Shown one piece after another: positions 7,094-63,012 of a stretch of 64,000 bases of DNA. The stretch lies in NCBI GenBank assembly GCA_017481495.1, contig JAFUPC010000011.1, forward strand, positions 58,711-122,710. Direction: 5' to 3'. The stretch comes from Clostridia bacterium (GTDB taxonomy: Bacteria; Bacillota; Clostridia; Oscillospirales; CAG-272). Below the pieces are notes generated by a model. That model was not told where the DNA came from, did not search any database, and saw only the letters and a list, made by a program, of their open reading frames with translations. Numbering within the stretch: position 1 is the first letter of the stretch; the number at the start of each line of letters is the position of its first letter. Both the position numbers and the translations under genes were made by a program.

Positions 7094-7176
7094 CCTTTGG
7101 CAAGGATGTAAACGGAAAGGTTCGCACAAAGAACCGTCCTGTCTGCATCCTCACCGGAGCAAAGTTTTCATCACCG
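7094..7176. repeat. Family-A intergenic palindromic repeat, copy 1
   Basis: TTTGGCAAGGATG..AAAGGTTCGCAC..GAACCGTCC..CATCC..AAAGTTTTCATCACC, between the gyrA stop and the recA promoter. Confidence 0.65.
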
Positions 7177-7210
7177 CCGCCCGTTCAACCGTCGTCCCAC
7201 GCGCTCCATC

Positions 7211-9874
7211 TTACTCCTCGTCCTCCGCGCCCGGCGCGTTAATATCGAGAAGCTCGATTTCGTCGCTTGCGGAATCACCGGAAATCACATCGTTATCCGG
7301 GATGGCATTTTCATCTTCCCCGTCGGTCATTTCATCCGGGATAACATCGTCATCCTTGACCAGCTCCGCCTGTTCCTCCGCCTTCTTTGCGGCTTCCTCA
7401 TCATCTCTGACGGGGGCGAAGTTGACGATGTGCGCGCCGTCGGAAAGGCGCATGACGATAACGCCCTGGCTGGGTCTGCCGCAGACACGGATGTCGGAGA
7501 CGGGGGTACGGATCATGGTGCCCTCATCGGTGATCATCATGACGTCCTCGTTTGTAGAGACAGTGGAGACACCGGCGAGCAGACCGGTTTTTTCGGTGAT
7601 GGCGTGGCAGACGATACCCTTACCGCCGCGGCCGTGGATGGAATACTCATGGAACGGGGTCACCTTTCCGTAGCCGTTTTCGGTAATGGAGAGGAGCATC
7701 AGCTTGCCGTCTGCCGCTTCCAGCTCTGCGGGTGTGGGAACGGTTGCCGCACCGGTGATATAGTCGCCCTCTGCAAGTGTCATACCTCTCACGCCGCGCG
7801 CGCCGCGGCCCATAACACGCGCCTGGTCCTCGTGGAAGCGGATCGCCTGACCGTTGTGGGAAGCAAGGAGGATGTCGTTTTCGCCTTTGGTGTAGCGGAC
7901 GAAGTCAAGAGAGTCGCCGTCGTCCAGGTCAATGGCGATTTTGCCGCCGCGCCGCTGGAACTCGAAATCTTTGACCGCAACGCGCTTGATGACACCCATT
8001 CTTGTGACCATCATCAGGTATTCGCCGTCGTTGAACGCGGGAATGTCGATAATCGCGGTCACCTTCTCGCCCTCGGACAGCTCCAGCACGTTGACGACAC
8101 TGGTGCCCTTTGCCGTTCTGCCGGCTTCGGGGATCTGGTACGCCTTGCGGACGTAAGCGCGGCCGAGATTCGTGAACATGAGCAGGAACGCGTGGCTGGG
8201 CACGATATGCACATCGTCCACAACGTCCTCTTCCTTTGTCGTCATGCCGATGATGCCCTTGCCGCCGCGCTTCTGTGCAACGTAGGTATCGGCGGGCTGA
8301 CGTTTGATATAGCCGGAGCGGGTCATCGTGATAACGCAGGTGTGGCGTTCGATGAGGTCTTCCAATACGATCTCGTTTTCCGCCGTGACGATCTCGGTTC
8401 TGCGCTCATCGGCGTATTTGCGCTTGATTTCCAGCATCTCATCCTTGATGATCCGGTGGATACGCCCTTCATCGGACAGAATTTCGCGCAGTTCCTTGAT
8501 GAGCGCTTCTTTTTCTTTCAGCTCATCCATGATCTTGATGCGTTCCAGTCCTGCCAGTTTACCGAGCGTCATATCGACGATCGCCTGCGCCTGCACGTCA
8601 GTAAGGCCGAAGCGTTCCATCAGTGCTGCCTTCGCATCGGCGACGGACTCGTTGGAACGGATGATGCGGATGACCTCGTCGATGTCCTCGATGGCGATCA
8701 TCTGACCCTCGAGAATGTGAGCGCGGGCAAGTGCCCGATCAAGGTCGAACTTCACGCGGCGTTCGATGACGGTCTCCTGGTGCGCGATATAGTGGTGCAG
8801 AATTTCCGGCAGGGAAAGGCACTTCGGCTCTCCGTTGACAAGCGCGATCATATTGACGGCAAACGTATCCTGCAGCTGGGTGTATTTATAGAACTGATTG
8901 AGGATGACCTGACCGTTGGCATCGCGGCGGTAGTCGACGACAATCTTCATACCGGCGCGGCCGGATTCGTCTCTGATGTCCGTGACACCCTCGACACGCT
9001 TTTCCTTGACAAGATTTGCCATACTCTCAACAAGCATCGACTTGTTCACAGCATAAGGAATTTCCGTGATGAGGATTCTGTGATGCTCCTCATCGACCTC
9101 CGCCTTGGAGCGCACCATGACACGACCCTTACCAGTGGTGTACGCTTCGATGATGCCCTGCGTGCCGTAAATGGTCGCGTAGGTCGGGAAGTCCGGGCCC
9201 TTGATATACTGCATGATGTCGGCAACGCTTGCATCGGGATTCTCCATATAATAAATGGTACCGTCGATGACCTCGCCGAGATTGTGCGGGGGAATATTGG
9301 TCGCCATACCGACCGCGATACCGACCGAGCCGTTGACAAGGAGATTCGGGAACCGGGCGGGGAGAACGTCGGGTTCTTTCAGCTTGTTGTCAAAGTTCGG
9401 GGAGAACGGAACGACATCCTTTTCGATGTTTTCGAGCATCTCATTGGCGATCTTCGCCATTCTCGCCTCGGTATAACGGTATGCCGCCGCGCCGTCGCCG
9501 TCGACGTTACCGAAGTTACCGTGACCCTCGATGAGCGGGTAACGCATGGAGAAGTCCTGCGCCAGTCGTACCATCGTATCGTACACCGCGACGTCACCGT
9601 GCGGATGGTATCGGCCGAGCACGTTACCGACCGTCGTTGCCGATTTGCGGAACGGCTTGTCCGATGTCAGATGGTCTTCGTACATGGCGTAAAGGATTCT
9701 TCTGTGAACGGGTTTGAGACCGTCCCTGACATCCGGCAGCGCACGCGCGACGATGACGCTCATGGAATACTCGATAAAGGATTTCTTTACCTCGGTATCC
9801 ATGCGGATGGGCAATATTTTCTGGTTCTCAAAGGTGATGTCCTTTGAAAGCTCCGGGTTTGTTTTCTTTGCCAT
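7211..9874 (-). CDS. gyrA: DNA gyrase subunit A
   Basis: 887 aa. Active-site region [11 protein letters not shown], GyrA-box-type beta-pinwheel C-terminal domain, acidic C-terminal tail. Confidence 0.97.
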
Positions 9875-9940
9875 TATTGATTCATCTTTCTGTTTATAAT
9901 TGTAATCTTAATTGGATTTATAGTTTTTTCGTTGATTTGG

Positions 9941-10013
9941 GAATGTTCTTCGGCAAGAACACGGGGTGAACGGTTCGCACAATAAACTTTCCCCTTGTGC
10001 GAAGCTTTTCGCC
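9941..10013. repeat. Family-A repeat, copy 2
   Basis: CGGCAAGAACACGGGGTGAACGGTTCGCACAATAAACTTTCCCCTTGTGCGAAGC, between the PfkB kinase stop and the gyrA start. Confidence 0.65.
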
Positions 10014-10045
10014 TATATTCTCACATTAGCGCTCCGCATCCCGCC

Positions 10046-61154: not shown

Positions 61155-61220
61155 TACAAGGAGGATAAGAGAACGGTTCGCACGGGAAGCCCCATGCCAA
61201 GCAAAGCTTGGCTTTCGGAA
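61155..61220. repeat. Family-A repeat, copy 11 (divergent)
   Basis: ..GAGAACGGTTCGCACGGGAAGCCCC.. followed by the hairpin GCCAAGC-aaa-GCTTGGC. Confidence 0.45.
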
Positions 61221-61352
61221 CTGGGGCTTCTCCCCGTCATCCTCTCCCCCATTTGTATTATAGCACAATTCCATCCCCTTGTCAAGTAGGAAGCCCCCGA
61301 AAACGCGCAAGGTCTCCCCGCCGTATCCGGAAAGGGAGACTTTCATCATGTG

Positions 61353-62900
61353 TTATTCGTCTTCGTCCGAAAGAAGGATCTTCGCCGCCGCTCCTGCGGC
61401 CAGAATCACGATCGCGGATGCGACAGCGACCGTAGCCATTGCCGCCGCGCGGGCTTTCCGCCGGAAGATGACGGCGGGGGATGCGGGATCTTGGGGCTCC
61501 GGGAACTTCGGTGCTTTTTTACCTTCCACAGAGTTGGGGAAAACCGCCGTCGTCAGGTCGTCATGAAGGTTCATGCGGCCGAACTGGGCGCCCGATGCGG
61601 TGTAGGCGCGGTAATAGCTTTGGTAATAATTGCCGTCGCCCGTCTCAAACAGCTTCCGCAGGGAAATATCCAGCGGCTGTTCTTCCGTGATGTCCTCTGA
61701 AACGCAGAACGGCTCTTTTGCCGTAATGTATTCGTCCGCAATGGTAGAGAAAATGTAGCCGTTGTTGTCAAAATCGTCCCCCTCGTACCAGTTGGCGACG
61801 TACAGCATGGTCGCGTTGTGGCGGTAGGAGGTGACACCCTGCTCAATGTAGTCCTCGGCAGTGCAGGTGCCGTTCCGAATCATATAGTGCCCGTCGATCT
61901 CGTTGCCGATCTCCTTGCCGGAACCGGCAAACGCACTTGCGATATAGTCCATCGAATAGGCGTGGTCAAACTTCGGCGCATCGTCCACGACCACAAGGTC
62001 GGCGGAAGCGGACAGTTCGCGGAAGCCGTAGGTGCATCTGCGCACGGAAGCCCCGTCCCAGACACATCCGAACTGCACCGCAAAGAGCGTATCGGGCGCA
62101 ACGTTTTTATGCGCTTCTCCCAGCCGGTCAATGAACGCTTTCAAGACCCGATGGCGGCACTGGTAAAAGAGAATGCCCAAGGTCCCGCGGTCGGAGGACG
62201 GCGGCATGGGAACGTCTTCAAAGGATTCATAGGACGTACCGAGGTCAAGGTTCAGGTCTTTGATTTTGCGGTAGGTCTTTTCCAGATACGTCGTGAACGC
62301 GCGGCGCATATGGTCGGAATAATCGAAATCGTCTGCGCACCAGTATTCCGTTTCGCAATACGGCGTAAACGTCGGGAACGCGGCGTAAATGGTATCGCCG
62401 AATTTCTCCGCAAAATGCCGCACCGTGTCGCGGTAGAAGCGGACGGCGCAGTCCGTTCCCCGGCGGCTCGCGTAGGAAATCATGACCATTTCCAGCCCGC
62501 AGTTGTGAACATATGGCTCGTCTTTGCCAAAGGGATACTGGAATTCATCGGTGTTCATGACAAGATCGCACGGCGTTTTCTGCCCGTCCAGCATATGGGA
62601 TCGCCGCTGCAAATCCACGGTCAGAATGACGTCCAGACCCTTTTCTTTGATATAGGCGATCTGCTCGTCGTAAACGCGGAAATCGTAGCGCAGGGGCTGT
62701 TTTTCCACATTGTGCCACGCCAGATGCAGACGGACAGTTGTGAATCCCTTCGCCGCGGCGGAATCCACGGTTCGACGGAAGGTATCAGTTTCCATCGGGA
62801 AAAAGTTCCAGATGACAAACGCCATGCGGCGGGTCTTCTGGGATGCGGAATGCACGGTGTCGTCCGCGGGGGTGGTGGAGTGGGGTTTGATGGTCAGCAT
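61353..62900 (-). CDS. TIM-barrel glycoside-hydrolase-like protein (GH42/GH5-like N-terminus) with a C-terminal TM anchor
   Basis: 515-aa ORF. GFTTVRLHLAWHNVEKQPLRYDFRVYDEQIAYIKEKGLDVIL resembles the GH42 N-terminal strand pattern. Candidate NE motif at IGNEIDG. C-terminal hydrophobic AAAMATVAVASAIVILAAGAAA. An alternative start at 62825 (MAFVIWNFF) is possible. Assignment is tentative. Confidence 0.5.
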   Translation of the reverse strand: MLTIKPHSTTPADDTVHSASQKTRRMAFVIWNFFPMETDTFRRTVDSAAAKGFTTVRLHLAWHNVEKQPLRYDFRVYDEQIAYIKEKGLDVILTVDLQRRSHMLDGQKTPCDLVMNTDEFQYPFGKDEPYVHNCGLEMVMISYASRRGTDCAVRFYRDTVRHFAEKFGDTIYAAFPTFTPYCETEYWCADDFDYSDHMRRAFTTYLEKTYRKIKDLNLDLGTSYESFEDVPMPPSSDRGTLGILFYQCRHRVLKAFIDRLGEAHKNVAPDTLFAVQFGCVWDGASVRRCTYGFRELSASADLVVVDDAPKFDHAYSMDYIASAFAGSGKEIGNEIDGHYMIRNGTCTAEDYIEQGVTSYRHNATMLYVANWYEGDDFDNNGYIFSTIADEYITAKEPFCVSEDITEEQPLDISLRKLFETGDGNYYQSYYRAYTASGAQFGRMNLHDDLTTAVFPNSVEGKKAPKFPEPQDPASPAVIFRRKARAAAMATVAVASAIVILAAGAAAKILLSDEDE

Positions 62901-62940
62901 GAGGGGGTCTCCTTGGTTGGGGATTGAGATATGGTAGAAA

Positions 62941-63012
62941 TTTGGCTTTGGCGAGAATGCGGGCCGGACGGTTCGCGCGATAAACCTTCTCGCTTACGTC
63001 CTTGCCGAATCA
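62941..63012. repeat. Family-A repeat, copy 12
   Basis: TTTGGCTTTGGCGAGAATGCGGGCCGGACGGTTCGCGCGATAAACCTTCTCGCTTACGTCCTTGCCGAAT, between the mnmG stop and the next gene start. Confidence 0.65.

What the first reader, a model, noticed from the sequence alone, without database searches (positions are those of the whole stretch)
7094..63012. High-density family of modular palindromic intergenic repeats (family A): 12 copies in 64 kb, mostly in one orientation
I found copies at 7094, 9941, 13594, 20825, 25058, 29652, 37231, 43866, 55836, 59197, 61155 and 62941, all intergenic. The shared modules are as follows. Outer arms are TTGGCAAGRA / TYCTTGCCAA. The core is CTGRAMGGTTCGCAC. The tail is AWAAACCTTCC. 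Long copies also have flanks GTCTGTAGTACGTTGTTTCGGCGAAA... / ...TAAAGTTTTCGCTGAANCAANGTACTAYAGAC. Copies 20825 and 59197 are inverted dimers forming imperfect palindromes of 110-130 bp. In monomer copies the stem sequence differs while complementarity is kept: ATGCGGGGGGAA/TTCCCCCGCAT at 25069/25099, versus GGCAAGAATACAAGCTGGA/TCCTGCTTATGTTCTTGCC at 29662/29700. The loop CGGTTCGCACGAWAAAC is conserved. At least 10 copies carry the asymmetric core in the same plus-strand orientation, on both sides of dnaA. Several lie between closely spaced co-directional genes where I found no intervening promoter (lepA-hemW, recF-DUF370, PfkB-gyrA, mnmG-next gene), so they are probably transcribed as intercistronic RNA. 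The ORF track repeatedly translates them into the same pseudo-peptides (..LANVKF.., ..SHEKP..LCSCQ.K.F.ETTYYR..), which inflates the N-termini of neighbouring genes. They could be REP/BIME- or MITE-like elements, RNA stability or processing hairpins, or a protein-binding site family.
Basis: seen in the sequence. Interest (0 to 1): 0.7.

Follow-up and report, generated by a model that had tools for sequence, protein, structure and literature searches.

The report
Palindromic intergenic repeat family, MITE/REP-like
An uncultured Clostridia bacterium has filled about 40% of the gaps between its genes near the replication origin with decaying copies of one 45-135 bp palindromic non-coding repeat. 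This is a new family of a well-known kind of small, probably selfish, bacterial repeat, not a new kind of system.

Summary
The repeat family is real. All 12 listed copies are homologous, and two more lie in the window (88-135, 16833-16885). Three further copies lie just outside it. All 14 window copies are intergenic.

The full unit (29625-29757, 59197-59325) is a ~130-bp imperfect palindrome. Two ~55-nt inverted arms flank an asymmetric core, GRAC-GGTTCGCAC-RAnAAACC.

- 59197 is a monomer in reverse orientation, not a dimer.
- Orientation is 9:5 in the window. It is 11:5 relative to transcription and does not flip at the DnaA-box cluster, so no bias is significant.
- The claimed compensatory stem changes do not exceed a shuffle control.

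Four related species (GyrA 83-91% identical) have no copy at the same, much shorter, spacers. Variant subfamilies recur at distant loci. Five strains of the species share every copy they cover. Nothing matched in Rfam or in the genome, metagenome, viral, plasmid or phage collections.

Best reading: a lineage-specific, now fixed and decaying, MITE/REP-like interspersed palindrome that is co-transcribed inside operons as a long hairpin. I could not find a transposase or a target-site duplication. It is a new member of a known kind, of modest interest.

The parts
88..135 (-).
   Evidence: nhmmer E 2e-3. The core GGACGGTTCGCAGAG matches. It shares the GAAGCCCC tail with E13 and the copy at -1266.
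7067..7178 (+). E2: monomer with inner arms and diverged outer arms. It lies between the gyrA stop and the recA promoter.
   Evidence: nhmmer E 2e-25. CM 79.8 bits plus against 55.5 minus. Sense RNA folds at -41.3 kcal/mol, z -4.0. The recA promoter at 7005-6977 lies downstream of it.
9946..10029 (+). E3: subfamily B copy (core followed by CCCCTTGTGCGAAGC, a partly mirrored core). The right arm is lost. It lies in the pfkB-gyrA spacer.
   Evidence: nhmmer E 1e-11. CM 33.2 bits plus against 28.8 minus. Sequence shown. This spacer is 171 nt here, against 48 and 69 nt in L035 and L036.
13592..13668 (+). E4: left outer arm, left inner arm and core; no right arm. It lies in the recF-remA-like spacer.
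   Evidence: Arm HMM E 2e-12. nhmmer E 4e-7. This spacer is 189 nt here, whereas the two genes abut or overlap in L034-L036.
16833..16885 (-).
   Evidence: nhmmer E 4e-8 on the minus strand. Core GGACGTTTCGCACAT. DnaA boxes lie at 16249-16776.
20825..20939 (-). E6: subfamily B copy. The complete core is on the minus strand and a mirrored half-core lengthens the stem. The outer arm is kept on the left side of the window only.
   Evidence: CM 52.1 bits minus against 45.3 plus. Arm HMM E 2e-16. Minus strand folds at -46.1 kcal/mol, z -5.6. It shares the insertion with E3 and E11.
25044..25157 (+). E7: monomer with a perfect G-rich inner stem and a right outer arm. It lies between the noc/parB stop and the parA promoter.
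   Evidence: nhmmer E 5e-24. CM 83.9 bits. Right arm HMM E 2e-12. Promoter at 24992-24964.
29625..29757 (+). E8: full-length 133-nt element with both outer arms, in the lepA-hemW spacer
   Evidence: nhmmer E 2e-27. CM 85.7 bits. Both arms found at E 9e-12 and 4e-13. Folds at -50.2 and -46.0 kcal/mol on the two strands, z -6.7 for both.
37218..37262 (+). E9: fragment with the left inner arm and a broken core, between two plus-strand genes
   Evidence: nhmmer E 5e-4. Arm HMM E 1.4e-3. TTGGCAAGAA is exact at 37236.
43867..43968 (+). E10: monomer with a decayed upper stem. It ends 1 nt from the stop codon of the PUA-methyltransferase gene.
   Evidence: nhmmer E 5e-24. CM 82.7 bits. Sense RNA z is only -2.2.
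55800..55910 (-). E11: subfamily B copy between convergent genes (murC-like and hyp491). Its stem is flanked by T-runs in both directions.
   Evidence: CM 42.3 bits minus against 36.2 plus. It shares the insertion with E6 and E3. A terminator-like hit lies at 55855-55838 on the minus strand.
59197..59325 (-). E12: full-length 129-nt near-perfect palindrome. It is a monomer with its core on the minus strand, not a dimer.
   Evidence: CM 77 bits minus against 39.7 plus. Both arms found at E 4e-16 and 2e-14. Plus strand folds at -70.2 kcal/mol, z -11.5.
61155..61191 (+). E13: core-only copy of subfamily C. It lies downstream of a perfect sigma-70-like promoter, so probably in the 5' UTR of the 60251-61081 gene.
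   Evidence: Core GAACGGTTCGCACGG. nhmmer E 3e-2. Promoter at 61285-61257 on the minus strand.
62923..63018 (+). E14: short-form monomer that fills the mnmG-GH42 spacer and abuts the mnmG stop codon
   Evidence: nhmmer E 3e-24. CM 80 bits. The plus strand folds at -30.2 kcal/mol, but the sense (minus) RNA folds no better than shuffles, z 0.09.

Best explanation
Family A is a lineage-specific family of small non-coding palindromic interspersed repeats. It belongs to the MITE / REP-REPIN / Correia kind.

ANATOMY. The ancestral unit is a ~130-bp imperfect palindrome.
- The outer arm is GTCTGTAGTACGTTGTTTCGGCGAAAACTTTAC.
- The inner arm is ATTGGCAAGRAYRCRRRCTGRA.
- The asymmetric ~25-nt centre is C-GGTTCGCAC-GAWAAACC-TT.
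- The two arms are then repeated in reverse complement.

HISTORY. Shown: copies spread to many intergenic spacers after this species split from its nearest sampled relatives. Shown: variants were themselves copied, giving subfamily B with a palindromising insertion and subfamily C with a GAAGCCCC tail. Shown: the copies are now fixed in the species and are 60-85% identical to each other. Their arms are lost from the outside inwards.

INFERRED
- Spread was by mobilisation in trans, by a transposase encoded elsewhere.
- Loss of the arms reflects the instability of long palindromes.
- The mirrored cores arose by template switching within the hairpin.

EFFECT. Several copies sit inside what are tight operons in relatives. 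They must therefore be transcribed as part of the mRNA. There the better-preserved copies can form hairpins of -40 to -70 kcal/mol. Any effect on processing or 3'-end stability is most likely a by-product, as for Correia or REP elements, and not the reason the family exists.
For: - Homology of 14 window copies and 3 flanking copies.
- All copies are intergenic; 14 of 36 spacers of 60 nt or more are occupied.
- Long inverted arms, and no solitary arm without a core.
- No copy in the syntenic dnaA-to-pgsA region of relatives with 91, 90, 88 and 83% GyrA identity.
- The corresponding spacers in relatives are much shorter. recF and the remA-like gene abut or overlap, against 189 nt here. The pfkB-gyrA spacer is 48-69 nt, against 171 nt here.
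- In the gyrA-recA spacer the conserved recA upstream block CCGAACAAA..ATGAAATTTCTGTAAAA aligns across species. The extra ~115-130 nt in the window is the palindrome.
- E3, E6 and E11, which lie 11-46 kb apart, share the same derived insertion. E1, E13 and the copy at -1266 share another tail.
- Pairing is fully explained by a palindromic consensus plus drift.
- Some sense-strand hairpins have decayed.
- Orientation shows no significant bias: 11:5 against transcription, and 4:2 left and 7:4 right of the DnaA-box cluster.
- No Rfam family matches, even at E up to 5.
Against: - No transposase or RAYT gene lies in the 74 kb examined.
- No target-site duplication could be defined from the two full-length copies.
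- There is no presence/absence polymorphism among six contigs from at least five samples at 99.0-99.98% identity, so there is no sign of current mobility.
- The most conserved part is the centre (mean pairwise column identity 0.75, against 0.68 for the inner arm and 0.35 for the outer arm). This is the reverse of a classical MITE, whose termini are conserved. It leaves room for selection on the core.
- No second genome carrying the family was found, so its history rests on one species.
- Only the origin-proximal 74 kb was seen, so genome-wide spread is assumed and not shown.
Confidence: 0.6

Rival explanations
1. These are host-selected RNA hairpins. The elements are kept because, once transcribed between cistrons or in 3' UTRs, the hairpin with its conserved loop acts in one of two ways. 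It is either a processing site (RNase III or RNase Y) or a barrier to 3' exonucleases, setting the relative expression of neighbouring genes.
For: - Every copy lies downstream of a gene end. The median gap to the upstream stop codon is 32 nt, against 57 nt to the next start.
- Several copies sit in spacers with no promoter-like site, inside operons that are conserved in relatives.
- The well-preserved copies fold far better than shuffles, z -4 to -11.5.
- The centre and inner stem are the best conserved parts.
- The copies are fixed in all strains seen.
Against: - There is no covariation beyond the consensus.
- The RNA actually made from the gene strand folds no better than shuffles at E14 (z 0.09) and only weakly at E10 (z -2.2).
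- Neither strand folds consistently better across copies.
- Both orientations occur relative to transcription (11:5), so the loop is presented as two different sequences.
- Related species run the same operons without any such element.
- The scan calls no canonical terminator, other than short stem fragments inside E2, E3, E11 and E12, with E11 the clearest.
Confidence: 0.2
2. This is a REPIN-type element mobilised by a RAYT (an HUH/Y1 transposase) and not by a DDE transposase. Each outer arm would be a tagged REP: GTAG, a few bases, then the small hairpin GTTTC-GGC-GAAAC. The whole palindrome would be an inverted REP pair that moves as single-stranded DNA.
For: - GTCTGTAGTAC ends, and a 5-bp/3-nt hairpin in several arms (E4L, E12L, E6L).
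- The copies are extragenic and lie downstream of ORFs between co-directional or convergent genes. Di Nocera et al. describe the same pattern for REPs (PMC3733652).
- Long persistence and vertical fixation resemble REPIN populations (PMC3116915 and the bioRxiv preprints listed).
- No target-site duplication was seen.
Against: - GTAG is exact in only 2 of 7 arm ends. The others read ATAG, GTGG, GTAA, GTTG and GTAC.
- The small arm hairpin is weak and poorly kept.
- Outer arms are missing from most copies, whereas the centre is always present. In REPINs the REPs are the conserved part.
- Orientation does not flip across the DnaA-box cluster, unlike strongly strand-dependent single-strand transposition.
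- No Y1 transposase lies in 74 kb.
- The words Firmicutes and Clostridi- do not occur in the text of the survey of tagged REPs that I read.
Confidence: 0.15
3. These are DNA-level protein-binding sites. The invariant centre (GRACGGTTCGCAC) and the TTGGCAAG/CTTGCCAA half-sites would be bound by a chromosomal protein, for example a nucleoid-associated, ParB/Noc-like or gyrase-type factor. The high density would then be a property of the origin-proximal domain.
For: - The window is the origin region. It holds a DnaA-box cluster at 16249-16776, three parS sites, parA and two parB paralogues.
- The sequence of the centre is better kept than the pairing.
- Function on double-stranded DNA would explain the indifference to orientation.
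Against: - The copies vary greatly in which half-sites they keep.
- The element is absent from relatives that have the same origin-region gene set.
- The true parS sites are separate and canonical.
- I cannot tell whether density falls away from the origin.
- No binding-site consensus I know of fits. The core holds CGAAC and GTTC half-sites 1 nt apart, whereas the Gram-positive LexA box, from my own knowledge, has them 4 nt apart.
Confidence: 0.08

Closest known systems
Correia repeat-enclosed elements (CREE) of Neisseria
   Same: Both are ~100-155-bp non-coding elements with long inverted arms around a conserved core. Both come in long and short forms. Both are very dense in intergenic DNA, are co-transcribed with neighbouring genes and fold into long hairpins. 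For CREE, promoter generation, IHF binding and RNase III binding or cleavage are reported (PMC2649163).
   Different: - There is no sequence similarity.
- No TA target duplication or other duplication was detected here.
- No outward promoter was found in the arms.
- IHF and RNase III sites are untested.
- The host is an uncultured Clostridia bacterium.
- No filled/empty polymorphism between strains was seen, whereas mobilisation between gonococcal strains is documented.
REP / REPIN elements with RAYT transposases
   Same: Both are extragenic palindromes. Both lie mostly downstream of ORFs between co-directional or convergent genes. Both are inherited vertically and fixed, are lineage-specific and occur as sequence subfamilies. 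An inverted pair folds into one large hairpin (PMC3733652; PMC3116915).
   Different: - A REP unit is 20-40 bp with a conserved GTAG or CGTC tag, and the REPs are the conserved part.
- Here the tag is poorly conserved, the outer arms are usually missing and the centre is the constant part.
- No RAYT was found in 74 kb.
Pneumococcal BOX, RUP and SPRITE repeats
   Same: All are small modular interspersed repeats in a Gram-positive genome. They are intergenic, often co-transcribed and form stable RNA structures. RUP is regarded as a MITE and SPRITE as terminator-like (PMC3049150 and PMC10969869).
   Different: - The sequences are unrelated.
- BOX is built of tandem A-B-C modules, not a single palindrome.
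- RUP has a known IS630-type partner (my own knowledge). No partner is known here.
Classical prokaryotic MITEs (IS deletion derivatives)
   Same: Both are short, non-coding and multi-copy, with terminal inverted repeats. Both are absent from related genomes at the same sites.
   Different: - A target-site duplication and a parent IS with matching ends are not demonstrated.
- The termini are the least conserved part here, not the most conserved.

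Membership tests
MITE (non-autonomous DDE-transposon derivative) | Short (under ~300-500 bp), no coding capacity, multiple dispersed copies | tested here: met
   Copies are 45-133 bp. There are 14 in 64 kb and 3 more in the flanks. Translations are interrupted or inconsistent. A pseudo-peptide search of 5.8 billion proteins found nothing.
MITE (non-autonomous DDE-transposon derivative) | Terminal inverted repeats | tested here: met
   Full-length copies E8 and E12 have ~55-nt inverted arms ending GTCTGT... 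/ ...ACAGAC. Only 2 of 17 copies keep both termini.
MITE (non-autonomous DDE-transposon derivative) | Target-site duplication flanking each copy | tested here: inconclusive
   The flanks of the seven recognisable arm ends show no consistent direct repeat, only a frequent T or GT before GTCTGT. No alignable empty site is available to fix the boundaries.
MITE (non-autonomous DDE-transposon derivative) | A cognate autonomous IS or transposase with the same ends | not testable with these tools
   There is no transposase in the 74 kb seen. The rest of the genome could not be fetched.
MITE (non-autonomous DDE-transposon derivative) | Filled and empty sites between related genomes | tested here: met
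   Four orthologous spacers are empty in the three related species whose loci span the whole region. The fourth, L041, covers and lacks only the two spacers flanking gyrA. Within the species every copy is fixed.
REP / REPIN-RAYT | Conserved unpaired GTAG (or CGTC) tag at one end of a 20-40-bp hairpin (PMC3733652) | tested here: not met
   GTAG is exact in 2 of 7 arm ends. The adjacent hairpin GTTTC-NNN-GAAAC has 5 bp and is kept in about 3 of 7.
REP / REPIN-RAYT | Single-copy RAYT (Y1/HUH) gene flanked by the repeats | not testable with these tools
   None lies in the 74 kb, and the rest of the genome was unavailable.
REP / REPIN-RAYT | Extragenic, mostly downstream of ORFs, between co-directional or convergent genes | tested here: met
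   13 copies lie in co-directional spacers, 1 in a convergent spacer and none in the 3 divergent spacers.
Curated structured RNA family (Rfam) | Match to an Rfam covariance model | tested here: not met
   There were no gathering-score hits. At E up to 5 there were only three unrelated weak hits, none on a copy.
Structured RNA under selection | Compensatory base-pair changes beyond what the consensus gives | tested here: not met
   The covariation score is 0.248 against 0.237 +/- 0.030 in shuffles (177/500 reach it). Paired cells are 85.5% against 85.2%. Only 6 sequences were used, so power is low.
Intrinsic (Rho-independent) terminator | GC-rich stem, short loop and an immediately following U-tract | tested here: not met
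   No whole copy is called by the terminator scan. It reports only short stem fragments inside E2 (7135-7119), E3 (9999-10012), E12 (59207-59219) and E11 (55855-55838). Only E11, between convergent genes, has T-runs on both sides of its stem. In full copies the T-run AAAGTTTT is itself paired within the stem.

The most novel reading that the evidence does not exclude
The family is not merely selfish DNA. Its invariant asymmetric centre (GRAC-GGTTCGCAC-RAnAAACC, presented at the tip of a hairpin) would be a recognition site for a dedicated protein. Two versions are possible. One is a Clostridial counterpart of the REPIN-RAYT partnership; I read no report of one in Firmicutes in the REP survey (PMC3733652). 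The other is a domesticated signal that marks intercistronic RNA, or origin-proximal DNA, in about 40% of spacers. This would explain three things: the centre is kept while the arms decay, every copy is fixed in all strains, and insertions are tolerated inside essential operons (recF-remA-gyrB-pfkB-gyrA, lepA-hemW).
Probability: 0.12. Interest if true: 0.6.

Novelty: new member of a known kind. Interest (0 to 1): 0.3.

Why it matters
PRACTICAL
- These repeats create spurious ORFs and N-terminal extensions in gene calls for this and similar metagenome-assembled genomes.
- They sit inside core operons next to oriC.
- They can break or confuse assemblies.

BIOLOGICAL
- About one copy per 4.5 kb, filling roughly 40% of usable spacers, would be dense if it holds genome-wide; by my own recollection that is comparable with other REP- or MITE-rich genomes.
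- It shows that uncultured rumen-type Clostridia carry private, lineage-specific families. Two relatives examined (L034 and L041) appear to carry different repeats at the same spacers.
- The family is a natural experiment on how long palindromes decay: loss of arms, and mirrored cores consistent with template switching. It also shows how operons tolerate 130-nt hairpins.
- It does not open a new class of system.

Tried and rejected
SEARCHES THAT FOUND NOTHING
- Rfam at gathering score and at E up to 5: nothing on any copy.
- Genome collection (185,579 species) scanned with GGTTCGCACNANAAACCTT: 30 singletons in unrelated phyla, as chance predicts.
- JGI metagenomes with a 21-letter arm-plus-core pattern: one chance hit in a 41% GC coding region. 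Viral contigs: none.
- Pseudo-peptide profile of the element against 5.8 billion predicted proteins, meant to reach other contigs: no hit.
- blastn of the full-length copy against plasmids and phages: nothing relevant.
- Full-text search for the core 11-mer: only unrelated primer sequences.

READINGS CONSIDERED AND REJECTED BY INSPECTION
- Sigma-54 promoter: TGGCA is present, but there is no TTGC at the required spacing.
- Sigma-70 promoter inside the element: only one copy has a passable TTGCGA-17-TATCGT.
- LexA (Cheo) box: CGAAC and GTTC are present, but 1 nt apart and not 4.
- XerCD dif-like site: no second arm.
- Integron attC: the neighbouring genes are housekeeping genes, and there are no R'/R'' boxes.
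- Inverton: a ~25-nt segment is too short, and the arms are palindromic.
- Group II intron domain V or a tRNA T-arm: only short word overlaps.

STRAND AND REPLICATION TESTS
- Strand-specific folding (G-U against A-C): neither the core-plus nor the core-minus strand folds consistently better. Where the strands differ, the window's plus strand tends to fold better. That strand is G- and T-rich, so composition may explain it (my inference).
- GC skew as a guide to the replication arm: uninformative, because it follows gene strand. I used the DnaA-box cluster instead.

Full report
SOURCE AND CONTEXT

The window is 53% GC. It carries the origin-region genes of a Clostridia bacterium known only from metagenomes. 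Read on the minus strand the order is mnmG, GH42..., lepA, hemW, rsmG, noc/parB, parA, parB, serS, MORN, lexA, dnaA, [DnaA-box cluster 16249-16776], dnaN, recF, a remA-like 101-aa gene, gyrB, pfkB, gyrA, recA, recX, miaB-like, pgsA.

Its GyrA is identical to MBQ8576520.1, 'MAG: Clostridia bacterium'. The sample names (XIEF21...) suggest a ruminant gut MAG set; this is my inference. Contigs from at least five samples are 99.0-99.98% identical to the window. No tRNA gene and no Rfam family was found.

Yes.
- Seeded repeat finding groups the listed sites into families D1-D3 and D11, with matching inverted pairs.
- A profile built from six good copies recovers all 12 listed sites. It also finds two that were not listed, at 16833-16885 and 88-135.
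- Extending the sequence by 2.8 kb on the left and 7.5 kb on the right, using contigs of the same species, adds three more copies.
- The core GRACGGTTCGCACRA occurs 13 times against 0.9 expected.
- The arm decamer occurs 31 times against 8.2 expected.
- All 14 window copies are intergenic, although only 14.5% of the window is. They occupy 14 of the 36 spacers of 60 nt or more.

ANATOMY

The two complete copies, E8 (29625-29757) and E12 (59197-59325), show the unit. It is a ~130-nt imperfect palindrome with ~55-nt arms. The outer arm is GTCTGTAGTACGTTGTTTCGGCGAAAACTTTAC and the inner arm is ATTGGCAAGRAYRCRRRCTGRA.

The centre is made asymmetric by an unpaired C and a 9-nt loop: GGA-C-GGTT-CGCACGAWA-AACC-TTCC. 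E12 folds at -70 kcal/mol (z -11.5). E8 folds at -50 and -46 kcal/mol on its two strands (z -6.7).

The other copies are partial.
- Inner arms only: E14.
- Left arm plus core: E3, E4, E9 and the copy at 64986.
- One outer arm: E6 and E7.
- Little more than the core: E1, E5 and E13.

An HMM of the arm alone finds no solitary arm. Every arm is attached to a core. Mean pairwise column identity is 0.75 for the centre, 0.68 for the inner arm and 0.35 for the outer arm.

1. 59197 is a monomer whose core points the other way (77 against 39.7 bits).

2. The genuine 'mirrored' forms are E6, E11 and E3. They share one derived insertion after AAACCTT, namely CCCCTTGKGCGAAsC. This insertion copies the reverse complement of GGTTCGC and so lengthens the stem. 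That signature is what template switching within a hairpin would produce; this is inference.

3. A second derived group (E1, E13 and the copy at -1266) shares the tail GAAGCCCC.

Shared derived changes at loci 11-62 kb apart mean that variants themselves were copied.

ORIENTATION

By the complete core, the window holds 9 plus and 5 minus copies. With the flanking copies the count is 11:6.

Relative to the transcribed strand of the neighbouring genes it is 11:5, with one copy between convergent genes. That gives a binomial p of about 0.2.

Left of the DnaA-box cluster the count is 4:2, and right of it 7:4. Orientation therefore does not flip at the likely origin. GC skew follows gene strand and cannot locate the replication arms. 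The apparent one-way orientation largely reflects the fact that most genes here are on the minus strand.

STRUCTURE CONSERVATION

On the six best monomers, RNAalifold gives one 29-pair helix with a covariation term of +1.34, which is no support.

Counting pairs gives 85.5% of cells paired, against 85.2 +/- 1.2 when 3' partners are exchanged among copies. Five pairs show changes on both sides, against 5.7 in shuffles. Only the slid-register control is clearly lower, at 38-51%.

Pairing is therefore a property of the palindromic consensus and not of copy-specific compensation. One or two copies (E7 and E11) do have several matched changes, but the set as a whole shows no excess. Power is low with six sequences.

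The RNA that would actually be made from the gene strand folds no better than shuffles at E14 (z 0.09) and weakly at E10 (z -2.2). Across copies neither strand folds consistently better.

COMPARISON WITH RELATIVES

The closest GyrA sequences in 5.8 billion proteins are 91, 90, 88 and 83% identical. I fetched their loci (L041, L034, L035, L036). Gene order from lexA/dnaA to pgsA is conserved.

Neither nhmmer at maximum sensitivity nor the covariance model finds a copy in them.

Spacer lengths compare as follows.

| Spacer | Window | L035 | L036 | L041 | L034 |
|---|---|---|---|---|---|
| recF to remA-like | 189 nt | -4 nt (overlap) | 2 nt | not covered | 10 nt |
| pfkB to gyrA | 171 nt | 48 nt | 69 nt | 178 nt | 729 nt |
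| gyrA to recA | 302 nt | 188 nt | 138 nt | 181 nt | 465 nt |

In the gyrA-recA spacer the recA upstream block is alignable in all species. The surplus in the window is the palindrome.

L034 and L041 appear to carry other, unrelated repeats in these spacers. The long L034 pfkB-gyrA spacer (729 nt) and the L041 one (178 nt) each hold such a repeat.

Within the species, all six contigs share every copy they cover. There are only two substitutions in the five copies covered by the 99.0% strain.

WIDER DISTRIBUTION

No second host was found.
- The species-representative genome collection gave only chance singletons.
- JGI metagenomes and viral contigs gave nothing real.
- Plasmids and phages gave nothing.
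- A profile of the element's pseudo-peptides gave nothing.
- The literature holds no paper with the core sequence in context.

GENE CONTEXT AND LIKELY EFFECT

No copy lies in a divergent promoter spacer (0 of 3). Thirteen lie between co-directional genes and one between convergent genes.
- E2 and E7 lie between a stop codon and the next consensus promoter (7005-6977 and 24992-24964).
- E13 lies downstream of a perfect promoter (61285-61257), so probably in a 5' UTR.
- E3, E4, E8 and E14 sit in spacers with no promoter-like site. These separate genes that are contiguous in relatives, so the copies must be transcribed within operon mRNAs.
- The terminator scan reports only short stem fragments inside E2, E3, E12 and E11. 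Only E11, between convergent genes, has T-runs on both sides.

The elements are therefore tolerated as read-through hairpins. An effect on processing or decay is possible but is not shown.

INTERPRETATION

What is shown: the family is a set of homologous, dispersed, strictly intergenic palindromes. They are absent from the orthologous sites of the nearest sampled relatives. Derived variants have been copied to distant loci. The copies are now fixed and drifting.

What is inferred: this is the behaviour of MITE, REP/REPIN and Correia-type elements (PMC10969869, PMC3116915, PMC3733652, PMC2649163), and spread was by a transposase acting in trans.

The mechanism of spread remains unproven. There is no transposase, no target duplication and no current polymorphism. 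The GTAG-tag criterion for REPs is not met. The conservation gradient, with the centre better kept than the termini, is atypical for a MITE. It could reflect palindrome instability trimming the arms, or selection on the centre.

I give 0.6 to 'selfish, now quiescent, mobile palindrome with incidental RNA hairpin effects'. I give 0.2 to a selected RNA role, 0.15 to a specifically RAYT-type mechanism and about 0.08 to a DNA-binding-site role.

VERDICT

This is a real, dense family that none of the databases searched here holds, of a well-known kind. It is a new member of a known kind, with interest 0.3.

Noticed in passing
window 16249-16776: Six DnaA-box-like 9-mers (TTATCCACA with one mismatch) cluster between dnaA and dnaN, so this is probably oriC. 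The 161-aa ORF at 16125-16610, called as a gene on the public contig (L001 3266-3751, no Pfam hit), is probably spurious. All genes for about 17 kb to the right of this cluster, from dnaA to the PRTase gene, point towards it. That is unusual if it is the only origin.
   Followed up: partly
window 25180-25195, 31740-31755, 31993-32008: There are three parS sites (TGTTTCACGTGAAACA with 0-1 mismatch; 0.01 expected by chance). One lies 23 nt beyond the right end of copy E7 and just downstream of the noc/parB gene. The window also holds parA and two parB paralogues.
   Followed up: partly
window 4979-5041, 34529-34591, 58201-58263: A second small repeat family (D8) has three copies of ~63 nt at 70-83% identity, all in the same orientation: TTTCGTTATTTTTTCCTTGCAAAAACAGCATCGTCGCCTT. 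The 34529 and 58201 copies begin at the T-tract of a terminator-like hairpin (34508-34532 and 58197-58209); none was scanned for at 4979. The family contains a TTGCAA motif. Its function is unknown.
   Followed up: no
window 45776-52542: This is a low-GC stretch (44-48% GC, against 53-56% for most of the rest). GC3 is 0.26-0.43 for the peptidase C39/C70-like gene, for two tandem paralogous genes of 161 and 165 aa (154-nt repeat 46855-47008 / 47403-47556, 87% identical), and for genes of 411 and 157 aa with no Pfam hit. These are interleaved with two normal-GC3 redox genes (48364-50671). It is probably horizontally acquired DNA. It contains no family A copy.
   Followed up: no
L034 556-1011, 2603-3136, 3351-3637 and 9271-10001; L041 77-212 and 1198-1377: Related species carry other sequences in the same spacers. 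In L034 the motif GGRGAACGCRGCTTTTTKRAAAAAGCYTGGCAAAAACTTTTTATATG appears to recur in three spacers. The L034 pfkB-gyrA spacer also holds an insertion flanked by GGGGAGGGGGGACCGCTTGCGGTGGGTGAGGTCG inverted repeats. In L041 TTTCSGATGAGCGTYCCGGC occurs in two spacers. Each lineage seems to have its own repeat set. I judged this by eye only.
   Followed up: partly
window 3000-4900, compared with L001: The 99.0%-identical strain (L001) concentrates its differences in 3.0-4.9 kb (pgsA and the miaB-like gene). That stretch has about 110 of the 192 differences found in 19.9 kb. This suggests a recombined segment and not uniform divergence.
   Followed up: no
window 6976-7005, 19591-19620, 24963-24992, 45242-45271: Repeat family D13 is simply the shared promoter architecture of the minus-strand genes: TTGCAA or TTGACC, 17 nt, then TATAAT. 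It is not a mobile repeat.
   Followed up: partly
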